From: Candidatus Shapirobacteria bacterium
Lineage (GTDB): Bacteria > Patescibacteriota > Microgenomatia > UBA12405
Length of the DNA: 62,664 bases
Direction of reading: 5' to 3'
Assembly: GCA_028704635.1 (NCBI GenBank)
Contig: JAQWFB010000006.1
Location: 1 to 62,664, forward strand
Position numbers and translations under genes: made by a program. How positions within the stretch are numbered: position 1 is the stretch's first letter; each line of letters starts with the position of its first letter. This document shows positions 35,352 through 55,485 of the stretch, one piece after another. The notes beneath the pieces were generated by a model. The model was not told the DNA's origin. It was given only the letters and a program-made list of their open reading frames with translations, and ran no database searches.

Positions 35352-35381
35352 TGTAGAGACGCGCCATGGTGCGTCTCTACA
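35352..35381. repeat. 30-bp REP-like palindrome TGTAGAGACGCGCCATGGTGCGTCTCTACA
   Basis: One mismatch from a perfect palindrome (a G-T pair). It lies 10 nt after the dnaK stop and is identical to the reverse complement of 47098-47127. Confidence 0.85.
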
Positions 35382-46871: not shown

Positions 46872-47447
46872 TTATTTTTGCCAATTAATAGGATTATTTT
46901 TAATATATTGACGTATATTATTTAATTCTATTTCGGATTTGATAATTTGATCATAATAACGACTTTGCCAGCCAAAAAATAAATTATTTTGATTACAAAT
47001 TCGCTTTACTGATGATTTATATTGATTAATGATTTTTGGAATGGTTTGATTAGATTTAATCGCTAATCGATGAAAATGATAATTTTGATATTTTATTTGT
47101 AGAGACGCACCATGGCGCGTCTCTACATGATTATCAAGCGTTTCCACGCTTTTATCTGGCGTCTCTACAAGGAATAGAATATGCACATGATTTGGCATAA
47201 CAATAAATTCATCCAAAATTACATTTGAAAAATGTTTATAAATATCAATTAAATATTGATTTGCAATTTCACCAATAGTTGATAATTCCATTTTATTATT
47301 AATAATTTTTCCAAAGAAATTATTATCGTTTAACGTTTTTATAGTAATAAAATAAAAACCTGGTGTAGAATAATCCCAATTATTTAATCTTGATGATTTT
47401 GTTTTAAATTTATCGGCAAATTTTTCAGGATTTTGAATATCAGACAC
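46872..47447 (-). CDS. IS200-like Y1 (HUH) transposase, REP-associated tyrosine transposase (RAYT)-like
   Basis: 191 aa. It has an HUH motif in MPNHVHILF and the C-terminal GWQSRYYDQIIKSEIELNNIRQYIKNNPINW typical of RAYT/IS200 TnpA. There is no tnpB and no flanking IS ends. The segment VETPDKSVETLDNHVETRHGASLQ is encoded by REP-like palindrome copies. Confidence 0.75.
   Translation of the reverse strand: MSDIQNPEKFADKFKTKSSRLNNWDYSTPGFYFITIKTLNDNNFFGKIINNKMELSTIGEIANQYLIDIYKHFSNVILDEFIVMPNHVHILFLVETPDKSVETLDNHVETRHGASLQIKYQNYHFHRLAIKSNQTIPKIINQYKSSVKRICNQNNLFFGWQSRYYDQIIKSEIELNNIRQYIKNNPINWQK
47098..47127. repeat. 30-bp REP-like palindrome inside the RAYT-like gene
   Basis: TGTAGAGACGCACCATGGCGCGTCTCTACA. 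Its reverse complement (the coding strand) is 30/30 identical to 35352-35381 and encodes VETRHGASLQ. Confidence 0.85.
47158..47169. repeat. Additional REP half-site (GGCGTCTCTACA) inside the RAYT-like gene
   Basis: Exact match to one palindrome arm. A degenerate copy (GTGGAAACG on the coding strand) lies between it and the full palindrome. Confidence 0.6.
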
Positions 47448-52450: not shown

Positions 52451-52479
52451 TTGACTTTTTATTTAATTTGTCCTACAAT
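52451..52479 (+). promoter_or_regulatory. Sigma-70-type promoter of the small-ORF cassette
   Basis: TTGACT (52451-52456), a 17-nt spacer, then TACAAT (52474-52479). Confidence 0.6.
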
Positions 52480-52595
52480 CCCACTAATTATCATTAAATG
52501 GCTCTAGTGCTTTTATTGATAAAGTACCTTTAAAATCTAGAGAAACGTTTGTGCCGAAAATTGGGAGTAATAATTTATTCCTAGCTTTCGGCATA

Positions 52596-52628
52596 AACCG
52601 AAAAAATAAAAAAAGAAAAGGCGGTAAT
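52596..52628 (+). repeat. 33-nt A-rich leader motif, copy A (AACCGAAAAAATAAAAAAAGAAAAGGCGGTAAT)
   Basis: 33/33 identical to 52992-53024. It ends 4 nt before an ATG and contains the SD-like AAAGGCGG. Confidence 0.85.
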
Positions 52629-52632
52629 AGAA

Positions 52633-52767
52633 ATGGAATATCATTTAATTAGATTAACTTGTGCGATAGTTTTAATTTTCTCAACGTTAACCCTTGTTGC
52701 GTTAACAAAAACATTTGGTTTTTTAGTACTAGAGGAAATATGGGAGCTGTTTATGTTGTCGTGGTAA
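52633..52767 (+). CDS. Small hydrophobic peptide (44 aa), cassette ORF A
   Basis: Manual translation: MEYHLIRLTCAIVLIFSTLTLVALTKTFGFLVLEEIWELFMLSW. It is preceded by leader copy A and falls below the ORF-track size cutoff. Confidence 0.4.
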   Translation: MEYHLIRLTCAIVLIFSTLTLVALTKTFGFLVLEEIWELFMLSW

Positions 52768-52819
52768 TTTTATTTATCACTTCAACAACAGGGATAATAT
52801 TATCCTATTTTTAGGGATA

Positions 52820-52848
52820 AACCAAAAAATAAAAAAGAAAGGTGGCCT
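52820..52848 (+). repeat. Diverged copy B of the A-rich leader motif
   Basis: AACCAAAAAATAAAAAAGAAAGGTGGCCT aligns with copies A and C with a few indels/substitutions. An ATG follows at 52853. Confidence 0.6.
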
Positions 52849-52852
52849 TGAG

Positions 52853-53005
52853 ATGACTTTTATAATTTTAATAATACTTATAATAATATCCATAATTTTT
52901 ATAGCGGCACGCAATTTTCTTATTTCCATGTTTCTTTTTGAAGCCGATGATATTGATGTCTACAAATACTATAAACATTATGAACTAATGCAACCGAAAA
53001 AATAA
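52853..53005 (+). CDS. Small membrane peptide (50 aa), cassette ORF B
   Basis: Manual translation: MTFIILIILIIISIIFIAARNFLISMFLFEADDIDVYKYYKHYELMQPKK. Its last codons and stop lie inside leader copy C. Confidence 0.4.
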   Translation: MTFIILIILIIISIIFIAARNFLISMFLFEADDIDVYKYYKHYELMQPKK

Positions 53006-53024
53006 AAAAAGAAAAGGCGGTAAT
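52992..53024 (+). repeat. 33-nt A-rich leader motif, copy C
   Basis: Identical to copy A. It is followed 4 nt later by ATG at 53029. Confidence 0.85.
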
Positions 53025-53028
53025 GATA

Positions 53029-53529
53029 ATGACATATTATAATTACTATTACACCCCAGTATCGTATGCCCCATGTTTTTTAATGTTATTACTAAGTTTT
53101 GTAATGTTGTTTCTTTCTCTTATGTCCTTCCGTCTTAGTAAAAGCACCACAGGCGATATTTTTTATATACAAAAATATTATAGTTCAAAACAACAAGCAG
53201 TCGGTCAAACCAATATAAAGTTGAAAAAAAATAAACTTTTATGTTTTCCAAATCCAATAGCTGTAACTTTTATTGCAAAAAAAGAATTTACAGTTTTAGT
53301 TAAAAATCACGGATCAATAAGAGAGGTTTCGGCATATCAAAAAGATGATCATTTTTTAGCAGAAGGAAAAGCAATAGAATTTAAAAATTATACAACAAAA
53401 GTAAATTGTTCATTTTATTTTCGGGGAGAATATTCGATTAATACTCTACGTGTCGCCGGAGATGTAATTTTATTTGCAATAATAATACTTTTAACCATAA
53501 TTTCCATATTATGGATATTTCTACATTAA
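53029..53529 (+). CDS. Hypothetical membrane protein (166 aa; N- and C-terminal TM segments), cassette ORF C
   Basis: ORF-track protein (listed from 53023). ATG at 53029 gives the same 4-nt spacing from the leader motif as ORF A. Tyr-rich N-terminus (TYYNYYYTPVSY). Confidence 0.55.
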   Translation: MTYYNYYYTPVSYAPCFLMLLLSFVMLFLSLMSFRLSKSTTGDIFYIQKYYSSKQQAVGQTNIKLKKNKLLCFPNPIAVTFIAKKEFTVLVKNHGSIREVSAYQKDDHFLAEGKAIEFKNYTTKVNCSFYFRGEYSINTLRVAGDVILFAIIILLTIISILWIFLH

Positions 53530-53552
53530 CTTTTTATTTCTCTAATTTTTTA

Positions 53553-53600
53553 GCCGGCAGGTCAATGTATAAAATACATCCTGTCGGCCTTTTCTTTTTT
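53553..53600 (+). terminator. Intrinsic terminator of the small-ORF cassette
   Basis: GCCGGCAGG..ATGTAT-AAA-ATACAT..CCTGTCGGC stem followed by CTTTTCTTTTTT. Confidence 0.7.
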
Positions 53601-53617
53601 ATTAAATTAATTAGACT

Positions 53618-53645
53618 GTAGAGACGTTCTGCAGAACGTCTCTAC
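53618..53645. repeat. Perfect 28-bp REP-like palindrome GTAGAGACGTTCTGCAGAACGTCTCTAC
   Basis: Exact self-complement with the same GTAGAGACG arms as the copies at 33335, 35352 and 47098. It lies between the cassette terminator and the alaS promoter. Confidence 0.85.
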
Positions 53646-53660
53646 TTAAATCAAAAATAT

Positions 53661-53669
53661 TGATATAAT
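53661..53669 (+). promoter_or_regulatory. Extended -10 element TGATATAAT, 7 nt upstream of the alaS ATG
   Basis: Exact TGnTATAAT. Only CATTCGT separates it from the ATG at 53677, and there is no SD. Confidence 0.5.
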
Positions 53670-53676
53670 CATTCGT

Positions 53677-55485
53677 ATGAAAGCCCGTGATTTAAAGGAA
53701 AAATTCATCAATTTTTTTGTTGCCCAAAAACATATCGAAATTCCCTCGGCCAGTTTAACTCCAGAAAATGACCCAACCACTCTTTTTATTTCCGCCGGCA
53801 TGCATCCTTTAGTTCCCTATCTTTTAGGCCAACCTCATCCACTTGGCAAAAGATTAACTGATGTTCAAAAATGCGTCAGAACAGGTGACATCGACGAAGT
53901 TGGTGATGGTTACCATCACACTTTTTTTGAAATGTTAGGTAATTGGAGTCTTGGTGATTATTTTAAGACTGAAGCAATTTCTTGGAGCTACCAATTTCTG
54001 ACCAAAGAATTAAATATCGACCCTAAAAACCTTCATTTTACCTGCTTTGAGGGTGATCAAGATGCCCCAAAAGACACCGAATCCCATGATCTTTGGTTAA
54101 AACAAGGAATTCCAGAAGAAAGAATTCATTACTTACCTAAAAAAGATAATTGGTGGGGTCCAGCTGGCAGTGTTGGCCCTTGTGGTCCAGACACCGAAAT
54201 GTTTATTGATACTAATCCAAATATCGGAGAAATTGATTTTCAAACTGGTTGTAAACAGGGGAGAATTATTGAAATTTGGAACGATGTTTTCATGCAATAT
54301 TACAAAGATGAAAATGGTAAATTTTCCGAAATGAAGCAAAAAAATGTCGATACTGGTATGGGTGTTGAACGAACCACAGCAATTTTGTCGGGTTTTTCGG
54401 ACAATTATTTATCCGACATCTGGCAACCAATAATTAAAGCAATTGAAGTATTTACTCCAAAAAAATATGAAGATAACCCAAAAATTTTTAGAATCATAGC
54501 TGATCATCTTAAAGCTGCCGTTTTTATTATTGCTGATGGTGTCGAACCATCAAACAAAGAAGCAGGGTATGTTCTCCGTCGTCTCATCCGTCGAGCTGTC
54601 CGACAAGGAAAATTATTGGGAATCGAAAATAATTTTACTGTTCCAATCGCCACAGCTATTTTGAAAAATCAGGGCAACTATGCCGGAGTTTATTTGGAAT
54701 TAAATCAAAATAGAGACCGTATTTTTTCGGTTTTAGAAAATGAAGAAAATAAATTTAGAAAAACTTTAAACAATGGTCTTCGCGAAATCAATAAATTAAT
54801 CGAAAATAAAAAAATTAAATCAATAAAAAATCAAGATAATTCTTTACTAAATATTAGCGGTAAAGAAGCTTTTACTCTTTATGAAAGTTTCGGTTTTCCA
54901 ATTGAAATGGTCGAAGAAGAACTACAAAAAAATAATTTAACCTTAAATAAGGAAGAATTTGAAGAAGCAAAATTAGCTCATCAAAAGCAGTCTCAGACTT
55001 TGTCTGCTGGCAAATTCAAGTCCGGTCTAGCAAATAATTCTGAAATTATTACTAAATATCACACCGCCACTCATTTATTACATTCTGCTTTAAGAAAAAT
55101 TTTAGGGGACAACGTTCAACAATCAGGTTCCAATATCACTTCCGAAAGGTTGCGTTTCGATTTTTCTCATTCTGAAAAATTAACTGACGACCAATTAAAA
55201 GAAGTGCAAGATTTAGTTAATCAGCAAATAAAATTAGATTTACCAGTCGTTATTGAAACCATGCCTTTTGTTGAAGCTCAAAAACAAAATGCTCTGGCTT
55301 TCTTTGGTAATAAATATCCGGAAACTGTCACCGTTTATACTATTGGTTCGGCAGAAAATTATTTTTCCAAAGAAGTTTGCACTGGTCCTCATGTGACTCG
55401 TTTATCCGAGTTAGGAAATTTTGAAATAATTAAAGAAGAATCTGCTGGTTCTGGCAAACGTCGTATTTACGCCATCTTAAAATAA
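53677..55485 (+). CDS. alaS: Alanyl-tRNA synthetase (short form without C-Ala domain)
   Basis: 602 aa. FFVAQKHIEIPSASL, FTNAGM-like (FISAGMHP), RTGDIDEVGDGYHHTFFEMLGNWS, and the editing-domain motifs HTATHLLHSALR and CTGPHV. Confidence 0.92.
   Translation: MKARDLKEKFINFFVAQKHIEIPSASLTPENDPTTLFISAGMHPLVPYLLGQPHPLGKRLTDVQKCVRTGDIDEVGDGYHHTFFEMLGNWSLGDYFKTEAISWSYQFLTKELNIDPKNLHFTCFEGDQDAPKDTESHDLWLKQGIPEERIHYLPKKDNWWGPAGSVGPCGPDTEMFIDTNPNIGEIDFQTGCKQGRIIEIWNDVFMQYYKDENGKFSEMKQKNVDTGMGVERTTAILSGFSDNYLSDIWQPIIKAIEVFTPKKYEDNPKIFRIIADHLKAAVFIIADGVEPSNKEAGYVLRRLIRRAVRQGKLLGIENNFTVPIATAILKNQGNYAGVYLELNQNRDRIFSVLENEENKFRKTLNNGLREINKLIENKKIKSIKNQDNSLLNISGKEAFTLYESFGFPIEMVEEELQKNNLTLNKEEFEEAKLAHQKQSQTLSAGKFKSGLANNSEIITKYHTATHLLHSALRKILGDNVQQSGSNITSERLRFDFSHSEKLTDDQLKEVQDLVNQQIKLDLPVVIETMPFVEAQKQNALAFFGNKYPETVTVYTIGSAENYFSKEVCTGPHVTRLSELGNFEIIKEESAGSGKRRIYAILK
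55465..55484 (+). repeat. Direct repeat copy 1: last 20 nt of alaS (ATTTACGCCATCTTAAAATA)
   Basis: Perfectly repeated at 58871-58890. It encodes IYAILK plus the first two bases of the stop codon. Confidence 0.9.

What the first reader, a model, noticed from the sequence alone, without database searches (positions are those of the whole stretch)
52451..53600. Self-contained cassette of tandem small hydrophobic ORFs, each behind a repeated A-rich leader
A cassette sits between the ytxH-like gene and alaS. It begins with a good promoter (TTGACT-17-TACAAT) and ends with a strong terminator (53553-53600).

It encodes at least three ORFs with N-terminal TM segments:
- 44 aa at 52633-52767.
- 50 aa at 52853-53005.
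- 166 aa at 53029-53529.
- A possible 24-aa overlapping ORF at 52740-52814 (MGAVYVVVVILFITSTTGIILSYF) behind AGAGGA.

ORFs A and C are each preceded, at identical 4-nt spacing, by the same 33-nt sequence, AACCGAAAAAATAAAAAAAGAAAAGGCGGTAAT (52596-52628 and 52992-53024, 33/33 identical). ORF B has a diverged copy (52820-52848). The stop codon of ORF B lies inside the next leader copy.

The peptides are not obviously homologous to each other, so the conserved unit is the leader rather than the protein. The organisation is reminiscent of bacteriocin/immunity, holin-like or small toxin arrays. I recognise none of the proteins.
Basis: seen in the sequence. Interest (0 to 1): 0.7.

Follow-up and report, generated by a model that had tools for sequence, protein, structure and literature searches.

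The report
Strain-variable membrane-protein operon with paired mRNA ends
This is a real, optional mini-operon of an uncultured Shapirobacteria (CPR) bacterium in which a conserved promoter, a new structured leader RNA that appears to pair with the 3' end of its own message, and a terminator frame a changeable set of orphan small membrane-protein genes; the repeated 33-nt sequence is the translation-start region copied in front of each gene.

Summary

Comparison with relatives changes the picture. The cassette is an optional insert between the ytxH-like gene and alaS. It is present on 9 contigs of close Shapirobacteria relatives and absent from most others.

Conserved parts:
- the promoter;
- a 114-nt 5'UTR with two covarying hairpins and no Rfam match;
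- an A-rich, Shine-Dalgarno leader before every ORF;
- a 13-nt box and the terminator.

The cargo varies: ORF B + ORF C, ORF C alone, or an unrelated 4-TM protein.

ORF B (4 genomes) and ORF C (5 protein clusters among 5.8 billion) are real orphan membrane proteins. ORF C has two TM helices flanking a beta-sandwich. ORF A and the 24-aa ORF occur only in this window and are probably a decayed duplicate.

The invariant linker of the 5'UTR is the reverse complement of the box just before the terminator, with compensatory changes. Whole-transcript folds of three relatives (not the window's own) predict this 5'-3' pairing.

I read it as a closed-loop mRNA chassis carrying exchangeable membrane-protein genes. 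It resembles type I toxin mRNAs, but membership is not shown. The protein function is unknown.

The parts
52451..52479 (+). Sigma-70-type promoter TTGACT-17-TACAAT of the cassette
   Evidence: Scan. The hexamers are conserved at the same position in L090, L084, L093, L094, L148, L149 and L150.
52486..52599 (+). Conserved structured 5'UTR RNA: hairpin P1 (52488-52522), invariant linker (52523-52546), hairpin P2 (52547-52598)
   Evidence: Covariance model R1 scores 95-125 bits in 9 contigs. 95% of cells are paired and 8 pairs changed on both sides, against 3.7 +/- 1.4 in shuffles. Fold z = -5.4. No Rfam family matches.
52532..52545 (+). 5' arm of the long-distance pairing (AAAATCTAGAGAAA; AAAATTAGAGAAA in relatives)
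   Evidence: Inverted repeat I14. 98% paired across 8 cassettes, with two compensatory pairs. Present in the MFE and centroid folds of L084, L090 and L149.
52596..52628 (+). Leader copy 1: A-rich tract plus SD-like AAGGCGGT
52633..52767 (+). ORF A, 44 aa with an N-terminal hydrophobic segment. Window-specific; probably the 5' remnant of an ORF C-type gene.
   Evidence: No homologue in any relative. About 62% DNA identity over 65 nt to the N-terminal TM codons of L094 ORF C (my own count on the alignment). BLASTP gives only E = 0.23.
52740..52814 (+). 24-aa overlapping ORF (A') behind AGAGGA. Possibly the C-terminal TM remnant of the same decayed gene.
   Evidence: It shares GTAATTTTATTT, in the same reading frame, with the C-terminal TM of ORF C (D9; frame read). 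BLASTP finds nothing. Weak evidence.
52819..52848 (+). Leader copy 2 (diverged, AAAGGTGG)
   Evidence: It is the same as the first leader of L094 and L150.
52853..53005 (+). ORF B, 50 aa: N-terminal TM plus acidic/aromatic tail
   Evidence: Conserved in L094, L150 and L148 with the motif RN..I..FLFE.D..VY.YYKHYE..QP.
52992..53024 (+). Leader copy 3, overlapping the stop codon of ORF B
   Evidence: 33/33 identical to copy 1. 41/43 identical to the L094 leader over the region through the ATG (my own count on the alignment).
53029..53529 (+). ORF C, 166 aa: TM helix, about 95-aa beta-sandwich, TM helix
   Evidence: Homologues P0002, P0003, P0005 and P0006, all at the same locus. AlphaFold2 pLDDT is about 90 for residues 48-142.
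53537..53550 (+). 3' arm of the long-distance pairing (TTTCTCTAATTTTT box)
   Evidence: (I14).
53553..53600 (+). Intrinsic terminator: hairpin 53553-53588 plus U-tail. The tail GCCUUUUCUUUUUU (53587-53600) is perfectly complementary to AAAAAAGAAAAGGC in leader copies 1 and 3.
   Evidence: fold. (I6). (the window MFE pairs leader 1 with the tail).

Best explanation
The region is a single-copy, strain-variable accessory operon of a narrow clade of Candidatus Shapirobacteria. It sits between the ytxH-like gene and alaS.

A conserved chassis frames a variable cargo of small membrane-protein genes. The chassis consists of:
- its own promoter;
- a 114-nt 5'UTR with two hairpins;
- an A-rich, SD-containing translation-initiation leader;
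- a 13-nt box;
- an intrinsic terminator.

The 33-nt repeat is that leader. Every ORF module carries a copy, probably for two reasons. Internal ORFs cannot use the leaderless initiation that many genes of this genome appear to use. The copies also give recombination a substrate for adding, swapping or losing modules.

In the window the modules are:
- a decayed ORF C-type duplicate (ORF A and A');
- ORF B (50 aa, one TM);
- ORF C (two TM helices around a beta-sandwich, highly diverged between close strains).

In the mRNA, the invariant linker between the two 5' hairpins pairs with the box just upstream of the terminator. The A-rich leader next to P2 pairs with U-rich 3' sequence. The two ends of the transcript are thus clamped together.

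Shown: presence/absence of the cassette, conservation of the chassis, covariation in the hairpins, conserved 5'-3' complementarity, and coding status of B and C.

Inferred: that the 5'-3' pairing forms in vivo; that it controls stability or translation of membrane proteins that are harmful if over-made; and that cargo turnover happens by recombination at the leaders.
For: Presence/absence. The cassette is absent in L081, L082, L083, L085, L086, L087, L088 and L089. It is present in L084, L090, L093, L094, L148, L149, L150 and L151.

Distribution. The covariance model finds the 5'UTR only at this locus: in 2 of 52 Shapirobacteria rodZ loci and once in the window.

5'UTR structure. Hairpin covariation. 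No Rfam family.

5'-3' pairing. 98% of cells are paired across 8 cassettes. Two A-U to G-C double changes occur in L084 and one U.G in L149. The helix is in the MFE and centroid folds of the whole transcripts of L084, L090 and L149. In the window, leader 1 pairs with the terminator tail over 14 bp.

Divergence pattern. Leader-to-ATG is about 92-93% identical between the window and L094, while ORF C is 32% identical at the protein level.

Coding status. ORF B. ORF C family, with a confident beta-sandwich model.

Genome context. Many genes of the window have a -10 box 6-7 nt before the ATG; only a few have A-rich SD leaders.
Against: - Only 9 contigs (8 distinct sequences) of closely related genomes are available. 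Covariation therefore rests on few events; both double changes in the 5'-3' helix come from one lineage (L084).
- The pairing partners are A/U-rich. Slid controls already reach 41-70% paired.
- In the window itself the linker carries a bulged C, and the MFE fold chooses the leader-tail pairing instead. That pairing crosses the linker-box helix, so both cannot be nested.
- There are no expression data.
- The proteins have no recognisable function.
- The substitutions in ORF B between the window and L094 are about 9-10 non-synonymous to 3 synonymous (my own count on the alignment). That pair alone therefore gives no evidence of purifying selection.
Confidence: 0.6

Rival explanations
1. Type I toxin-antitoxin-like module. 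ORF B (and/or ORF A) would be a small membrane toxin. Its mRNA would be held inert by the 5'-3' long-distance interaction. An antisense RNA would start inside the 5' end of ORF B, cover its SD and leader, and end at hairpin P2 read on the minus strand.
For: - ORF B is 50 aa with one TM and a charged tail, like Hok-size toxins (my own knowledge).
- The 5'UTR is long and structured, with 5'-3' pairing. This is the design described for the aapA and hok mRNAs (PMC6733600).
- In the window the 3' tail is complementary to the leader up to the first bases of the SD.
- Minus-strand promoter-like sites sit at the same place in ORF B in the window (52892->52865) and in L150 (TGGACA-16-TAAAAT, 10/12, the best site in that region).
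- The locus is strain-variable and intergenic.
Against: - The same chassis carries only a 109-153-aa 4-TM protein (L084, L090, L093), or only ORF C (L149), with no small toxin-like ORF.
- No minus-strand promoter is found near the first ORF in L090 or L149.
- AT-rich Ile/Leu codons make promoter-like hexamers by chance; 14 were found against 10.2 expected in the window region.
- The SD is at most partly covered by the predicted pairings.
- Toxicity has not been tested.
Confidence: 0.17
2. The two complementary 13-nt arms act at the DNA level. They would be inverted repeats of an invertible (phase-variable) segment that flips P2, the leaders and the ORFs relative to the fixed promoter.
For: Conserved inverted repeats of 13-14 nt flank the cargo in all cassettes, while the promoter lies outside them. 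Cargo genes are variable surface or membrane proteins, as in many phase-variable loci (my own knowledge).
Against: - All 9 contigs show the same orientation.
- No recombinase was seen in the flanks I read. Only rodZ-like, DUF948-like, ytxH-like and alaS genes were noted.
- L149 has a T/G difference that keeps RNA pairing (U.G) but is a mismatch for a DNA repeat.
- The complementarity continues on the far side of hairpin P2 (A-rich leader with U-rich 3'UTR). This fits an RNA three-way junction better than a recombinase site.
- The 5' arm lies inside an RNA element whose stems covary.
Confidence: 0.07
3. A bacteriocin/immunity cluster, a holin-like cluster or a prophage remnant.
For: Tandem small hydrophobic ORFs with strain-variable content.
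Against: - No double-glycine leader; the ORFs start directly with a TM segment.
- The flanks I read showed only rodZ-like, DUF948-like, ytxH-like, alaS and cupin genes.
- No significant PHROG or PADLOC hit at E <= 0.001; the best is a PHROG of unknown function at E = 0.0021.
- No relatives or 5'UTR motif on viral contigs; the single hit, L095, is a high-GC chance match.
Confidence: 0.04
4. Decaying non-coding DNA: chance ORFs in AT-rich spacer.
For: ORF A and A' have no homologue, overlap out of frame, and show only weak similarity to the TM segments of ORF C.
Against: For the cassette as a whole this is excluded.
- The promoter, 5'UTR and terminator are conserved at 82-89% mean column identity across genomes whose RodZ-like proteins are 65-93% identical to the window's.
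- ORF C homologues stay open over more than 120 codons at 25-45% identity.
- ORF B stays open in 4 genomes.
Confidence: 0.02

Closest known systems
Type I toxin mRNAs with a 5'-3' long-distance interaction (hok/sok fbi-tac; Helicobacter aapA/isoA)
   Same: A small hydrophobic ORF of 44-50 aa. A long structured 5'UTR. Conserved base pairing between the 5'UTR and the 3' end of the same mRNA (PMC6733600). An intergenic, strain-variable locus. Module duplication.
   Different: - No antitoxin RNA has been demonstrated.
- The 3' arm lies upstream of the terminator hairpin and not at the extreme end.
- The SD is not clearly occluded.
- The same chassis also carries 109-166-aa membrane proteins and is polycistronic.
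- No sequence similarity to any listed family was found.
Stabilising or cis-regulatory 5'UTR stem-loops (ompA-type 5' hairpins; riboswitch-like leaders)
   Same: Two conserved hairpins near the 5' end of an mRNA for membrane proteins, with a conserved single-stranded linker between them.
   Different: No Rfam family matches. No terminator or SD-sequestering expression platform follows P2. The linker pairs with the 3'UTR instead of forming an obvious ligand pocket.
Variable cargo between conserved flanks (polymorphic accessory islets, integron-like cassette arrays)
   Same: A conserved boundary sequence, here the leader, before each ORF. The number and identity of ORFs differ between strains. 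Sharp identity breakpoints fall at the module boundaries.
   Different: The boundary repeat is an A-rich translation-initiation region and not an attC-type imperfect palindrome. No integrase was seen. Modules share one promoter and one terminator that belong to the element itself.

Membership tests
Type I toxin-antitoxin system | Small (<60 aa) hydrophobic membrane peptide as toxin | tested here: inconclusive
   ORF B (50 aa) and ORF A (44 aa) fit by size and hydrophobicity. But the cassettes in L084, L090, L093 and L149 have no such ORF.
Type I toxin-antitoxin system | Antisense or divergent small RNA antitoxin that pairs with the toxin mRNA | tested here: inconclusive
   Minus-strand promoter-like sites lie inside ORF B in the window and L150. 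None is found in L090 or L149. No expression data are available.
Type I toxin-antitoxin system | mRNA fold that occludes the ribosome-binding site (local anti-SD or 5'-3' long-distance interaction) | tested here: inconclusive
   A conserved 5'-3' helix is present. It involves the linker and the A-rich tract upstream of the SD. Only the leader-tail pairing in the window reaches the first SD bases.
Type I toxin-antitoxin system | Toxicity of the peptide on expression | not testable with these tools
   Needs induction in a surrogate host.
Known cis-regulatory RNA or riboswitch (any Rfam 15 family) | Match to a curated covariance model | tested here: not met
   In the window (E-value mode) the best overlap with the 5'UTR is 24 bits against a 53-bit gathering score. 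No gathering-level hit in six relatives.
Intrinsic (rho-independent) terminator | GC-rich hairpin followed by a U-tract at the end of the unit | tested here: met
   Hairpin 53553-53588, dG -19.8 kcal/mol, z = -6.2, tail CUUUUCUUUUUU. Conserved in L149 and L150 and visible in L084, L090, L093 and L148.
Integron gene-cassette array | attC imperfect inverted repeat at each cassette boundary, and an integrase/attI nearby | tested here: not met
   The boundary repeat is A-rich with no internal inverted repeat. The neighbours I read are rodZ-like, DUF948-like, ytxH-like and alaS.
Class II bacteriocin / immunity locus | Pre-peptide with a double-glycine or sec leader, plus dedicated export and immunity genes | tested here: not met
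   The ORFs begin directly with a TM segment. No family hits. No transporter was seen next to the cassette.
Holin / phage lysis cassette | Holin family membership and an adjacent endolysin, or a phage context | tested here: not met
   PHROGs gives no hit at E <= 0.001. No relatives on viral contigs. The flanks are housekeeping genes.
DNA inversion switch (inverton) | Inverted repeats flanking the switched segment | tested here: met
   13-14-nt arms at 52532-52545 and 53537-53550, conserved in 8 cassettes.
DNA inversion switch (inverton) | Both orientations observed; a cognate recombinase | tested here: not met
   All 9 contigs have the same orientation. No recombinase was seen in the flanks read. 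Read-level data were not available.

The most novel reading that the evidence does not exclude
The conserved promoter-5'UTR...box-terminator frame is a previously undescribed closed-loop mRNA chassis of CPR bacteria. Its 5' and 3' ends pair to keep a potentially harmful membrane-protein message stable but poorly translated until it is processed. It would be functionally equivalent to hok/aapA-type type I toxin control, but polycistronic and with exchangeable effector ORFs. That would make it the first RNA-gated toxin-like or exclusion module recognised in the Candidate Phyla Radiation.
Probability: 0.2. Interest if true: 0.8.

Novelty: new variant of a known kind. Interest (0 to 1): 0.55.

Why it matters
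CPR bacteria are uncultured episymbionts. A large share of their genes are orphan membrane proteins, and their gene regulation is almost unknown.

This locus offers three things:
- a compact, well-delimited example of strain-level accessory membrane genes;
- a new structured RNA with covariation support and no Rfam counterpart;
- a testable case of 5'-3' mRNA end pairing outside the few model systems where it is known.

It also illustrates how, in a genome that seems to rely largely on leaderless mRNAs, internal cistrons acquire a portable SD leader. If the chassis gates toxic or exclusion proteins, it would extend RNA-controlled toxin logic to the CPR. If not, it is still a useful new cis-regulatory RNA candidate and a marker of strain variation in Shapirobacteria.

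Tried and rejected
- **Leader in public genomes.** An exact search for the 28-nt leader core in species-representative genomes found 0 hits.
- **alaS as a probe for relatives.** I switched to the RodZ-like protein.
- **5'UTR pattern searches.** Genomes gave only L084 and L090 again. Metagenomes gave two new contigs. Viral contigs gave one high-GC chance match, L095, which I discarded.
- **A protein gene on the minus strand across the 5'UTR (MPKARNKLLLPIFG...).** Rejected. The start codon is lost in L148, L149 and L150, and the C-terminal halves are out of frame.
- **A leader peptide starting in P2 (MPKIG...).** Rejected. In L149 the start is ATA, and there is no SD.
- **Family searches.** Pfam, NCBIfam, PHROGs and PADLOC found nothing significant for ORFs A, B and C or for the alternative 4-TM cargo.
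- **Structure search with the ORF C model.** No match in the PDB at E < 0.001, and TM-scores of at most about 0.37 in either library. The fold is a generic beta-sandwich.
- **P0004 from the exhaustive search.** It is a repeat protein matching 40 residues and I treated it as spurious.
- **Homology of ORF A/A' to the TM segments of ORF C.** BLASTP is not significant. I kept it only as a tentative reading.
- **Scripts.** The script machine was lost, so no custom statistics (dN/dS, motif enrichment) could be run.
Full report
**1. Observation**

- The 33-mer AACCGAAAAAATAAAAAAAGAAAAGGCGGTAAT occurs exactly twice in the window, at 52596-52628 and 52992-53024, with none expected by chance.
- The similarity runs on to 49 nt at 88%, through the ATG and the first codons.
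- A diverged copy precedes ORF B at 52819-52848.
- The ORFs of 44, 50 and 166 aa and the 24-aa overlapping ORF are present.
- TTGACT-17-TACAAT (52451-52479) is the best promoter-like site nearby.
- The terminator is a 36-nt hairpin at 53553-53588 with dG -19.8 kcal/mol and z = -6.2, followed by a U-tract.
- The leader motif and the 5'UTR motif each occur only here in the 62.7-kb window.

**2. Organism and genomic context**

The flanking RodZ-like HTH_25 protein finds relatives labelled Candidatus Shapirobacteria, a group of CPR/Microgenomates bacteria, at 65-93% identity.

Gene order is rodZ-like, an 86-aa TM protein, a ytxH-like protein, then alaS.

Many genes of the window have a TATAAT-like box 6-7 nt before the start codon, so they are probably leaderless. 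Only a few have A-rich SD leaders. In relatives without the cassette, alaS follows the ytxH-like stop codon after 20-230 bp.

**3. The cassette is an optional insert**

The whole promoter-to-terminator block is absent from L081 (the closest relative, 93% RodZ identity), L082, L083, L085, L086, L087, L088 and L089.

It is present at exactly the same site in these contigs:
- L090 and L084 (species-representative genomes);
- L093, L094 and L150 (JGI metagenomes);
- L148, L149 and L151 (ENA assemblies).

A covariance model of the 5'UTR finds it in only 2 of 52 Shapirobacteria rodZ loci, and only once in the window. The element is therefore single-copy, locus-specific and confined to a narrow clade.

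**4. What is conserved and what varies**

All nine copies share:
- the promoter hexamers;
- a 5'UTR of about 114 nt;
- an A-rich tract ending in an SD-like AAGG(C/T)GG or AGAGG, 5-8 nt before the start codon;
- a box TTTCTCTAATTTT;
- a terminator built on CCGGCAGGT...ACCTGCCGG.

The cargo differs:

| Contig(s) | Cargo |
|---|---|
| window | ORF A/A', ORF B, ORF C |
| L094, L150, L151, L148 | ORF B, ORF C |
| L149 | ORF C only |
| L090, L093, L084 | one unrelated 109-153-aa protein with four hydrophobic segments |

Every ORF is preceded by a version of the leader.

Between the window and L094, the DNA from leader B through ORF B and leader C to the ATG of ORF C is about 92-93% identical. Identity collapses immediately after that ATG, to 32% protein identity over 62 residues. 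It returns about 40 nt before the terminator.

**5. Are the ORFs genes?**

*ORF C: yes.*
- An exhaustive HMMER scan of 1.84 billion representatives finds only P0002 (45% identity) and P0003 (33%), plus one spurious hit.
- A profile search of 5.8 billion clusters adds P0005 and P0006.
- All of them are encoded at this same locus.
- They stay open for 123-166 codons in an AT-rich genome.
- AlphaFold2 on the five-sequence alignment gives a TM helix (residues 14-37), a confident all-beta domain (48-142, pLDDT about 90) and a second TM helix (144-165).
- Foldseek finds no convincing relative in the PDB or among viral models.

*ORF B: probably yes.*
- It is open in four genomes.
- At 56% identity (L148) the motif RN..I..FLFE.D..VY.YYKHYE..QP is kept.
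- The close pair window/L094 has about 9-10 non-synonymous and 3 synonymous differences (my own count on the alignment). That pair alone does not show purifying selection.
- Gene callers mostly missed it; only one cluster exists in the protein database.

*ORF A and the 24-aa ORF: probably not independent genes.*
- They have no counterpart anywhere.
- ORF A's first 65 nt are about 62% identical to the N-terminal TM codons of the L094 ORF C (my own count on the alignment).
- The 24-aa ORF shares an in-frame GTAATTTTATTT with the C-terminal TM of ORF C (D9).
- BLASTP is not significant for either.
- I read this unit, tentatively, as a duplicated ORF C-type module that lost its middle and went out of frame.

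No ORF matches Pfam, NCBIfam, PHROGs or PADLOC.

**6. The 5'UTR is a structured RNA**

RNAalifold predicts two hairpins, P1 (52488-52522) and P2 (52547-52598), separated by a nearly invariant linker, GUACUUUUAAAAUUAGAGAAA.

On eight distinct sequences:
- 95% of cells are paired;
- 8 pairs have changes on both sides, against 3.7 +/- 1.4 in shuffles (2 of 500 shuffles reach this);
- slid controls fall to 39-54%.

Examples of compensatory change are ATCA/TGAT to ATTA/TAAT in P1 and TGCCGA/TCGGCA to TACCGA/TCGGTA in P2 of L149.

The alignment was fitted to the model and the sequences are related, so this is good but not overwhelming support.

The window's 5'UTR folds far better than shuffles (z = -5.4). 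No Rfam family matches. Apparent ORFs on either strand of this region are not conserved as proteins.

**7. The 5' and 3' ends are complementary**

The linker segment AAAAUUAGAGAAA (window 52532-52545, with one bulged C) is the reverse complement of the box UUUCUCUAAUUUU. The box lies 2-8 nt upstream of the terminator hairpin in every cassette (window 53537-53550, I14).

Across eight cassettes:
- 98% of cells pair;
- L084 has two A-U to G-C double changes (linker AGGGAG with box CUCCCU);
- L149 has a U.G wobble;
- slid controls give 41-70%, high because the arms are A/U-rich.

Folding the complete predicted transcripts of L084, L090 and L149 puts this helix into both the MFE and the centroid structure, together with P1, P2 and the terminator.

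In L090 and L149 the A-rich leader just 3' of P2 also pairs with the U-rich stretch just 5' of the box. P2 then sits as a branch on a long end-to-end helix. By my own reading, the interruptions in the A- and U-runs match each other.

In the window, the MFE instead pairs leader 1 (AAAAAAGAAAAGGC) with the post-terminator tail (GCCUUUUCUUUUUU), 14 bp. L150 shows the matching variant, AAAAAAGAAAG with CUUUCUUUUUU. This second pairing crosses the first, so the two are either alternatives or a pseudoknot. I cannot tell which.

**8. Mechanism I consider most likely (confidence about 0.6)**

I read the region as an accessory operon whose mRNA is built on a conserved chassis.
- The structured 5'UTR and its pairing with the 3'UTR clamp the transcript ends next to the terminator hairpin.
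- This plausibly protects the message and/or limits initiation at the first cistron.
- Each cistron has its own portable A-rich SD leader.
- Those leader copies are also the places where modules have been duplicated, exchanged or lost.

The steps differ in how well they are supported.
- *Shown:* cassette presence/absence; chassis conservation; hairpin covariation; conserved end complementarity; coding status of ORF B and ORF C.
- *Inferred:* that the pairing forms in vivo; its effect on stability or translation; recombination at the leaders.
- *Unknown:* what the proteins do.

The extreme divergence of ORF C between strains whose flanks are more than 90% identical suggests diversifying selection or allele replacement. 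That would suit a surface-exposed protein.

**9. Rivals**

- **Type I toxin-antitoxin-like system (about 0.17).** The end-pairing design and the 44-50-aa hydrophobic ORFs resemble the hok and aapA mRNAs (PMC6733600). A minus-strand promoter-like site recurs inside ORF B. However, the same chassis carries larger proteins without any small ORF, antisense promoters are not consistent, and neither toxicity nor an antitoxin has been shown.
- **DNA inversion switch (about 0.07).** The arms are inverted repeats that flank the cargo. However, all nine contigs share one orientation, no recombinase was seen in the flanks I read, and the wobble pair and the P2-interrupted extension fit RNA better.
- **Bacteriocin, holin or prophage remnant (about 0.04).** No family hits and no viral relatives.
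- **Decaying DNA (about 0.02).** Excluded for the cassette as a whole; plausible for the ORF A unit only.

**10. Comparison and novelty**

It works most like type I toxin mRNAs with a 5'-3' long-distance interaction. It cannot be filed as one, because the antitoxin, RBS occlusion and toxicity are untested or inconclusive.

It is not a known Rfam RNA, not an integron array and not a bacteriocin or lysis cluster.

The RNA element and both protein families are new, and so far confined to a handful of Shapirobacteria genomes. The concepts involved are known: a cis-acting structured UTR, mRNA end pairing, and modular accessory genes. I therefore rate it a new variant of a known kind, of moderate interest (0.55).

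**11. Limits**

- There are few and closely related sequences.
- The pairing arms are A/U-rich.
- There are no expression or read-level data.
- L148 is an error-prone assembly, with alaS and ftsK split. I attribute its frameshifts (my own reading of the sequence) to assembly errors and ignored them.
- The script machine failed, so no custom statistics could be computed.

Noticed in passing
window 35353-35380, 47099-47126, 53618-53645; L081 9215-9420: A family of perfect 28-nt palindromes, GTAGAGACG-N10-CGTCTCTAC, occurs 3 times in the window with 0 expected. One lies just downstream of the cassette terminator and folds at -19.2 kcal/mol. In L081, which lacks the cassette, three of them plus a fourth related palindrome with different arms (GTAGGAACACGCC...) fill the ytxH-alaS spacer. 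They look like REP-like elements or terminators without a U-tract.
   Followed up: partly
whole window, e.g. 41706, 47796, 49078, 51848, 53677: Many genes have a TATAAT- or TATACT-like box ending 6-7 nt before the ATG and no SD, which suggests widespread leaderless mRNAs. A minority have A-rich leaders with GGAGG-like SDs.
   Followed up: partly
L087 1825-1868; L082 9150-9197: In relatives without the cassette, the -35 of the alaS promoter (TTGTCA) lies inside the last codons of the ytxH-like gene, and alaS starts 7 nt after TATAAT. In the window the cassette separates the two, and alaS uses TGATATAAT at 53661-53669.
   Followed up: no
window 53677-55485: The alaS ORF is only 602 aa here and 568-626 aa in relatives. 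This is shorter than the roughly 870-aa bacterial AlaRS I know of, so the C-terminal part seems to be missing.
   Followed up: no
L090 9740-9835: The alternative 4-TM cargo protein of L090 ends in a (PQTQ)n tandem repeat that is absent from its L093 and L084 homologues.
   Followed up: no
L089 9246-9761 (minus strand): One relative has a 171-aa gene on the opposite strand between the ytxH-like gene and alaS, in place of the cassette. The same spacer thus accepts different inserts.
   Followed up: no
window 52790-52818: The ORF A unit ends in a small hairpin (GGGATAATATTATCC) followed by TATTTTTAG, a weak terminator-like site inside the operon. It may be the 3' remnant of the decayed module (by eye).
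   Followed up: no
window 52521-52531; relatives e.g. L090 9268-9277: The 5'UTR linker contains the perfect 10-nt palindrome AAAGTACTTT in six of the seven relative cassettes; L084 has AAAAGTACTTTC. In the window it is AAAGTACCTTT. It could be a protein operator or an RNA dimerisation site. It is unexplained.
   Followed up: no
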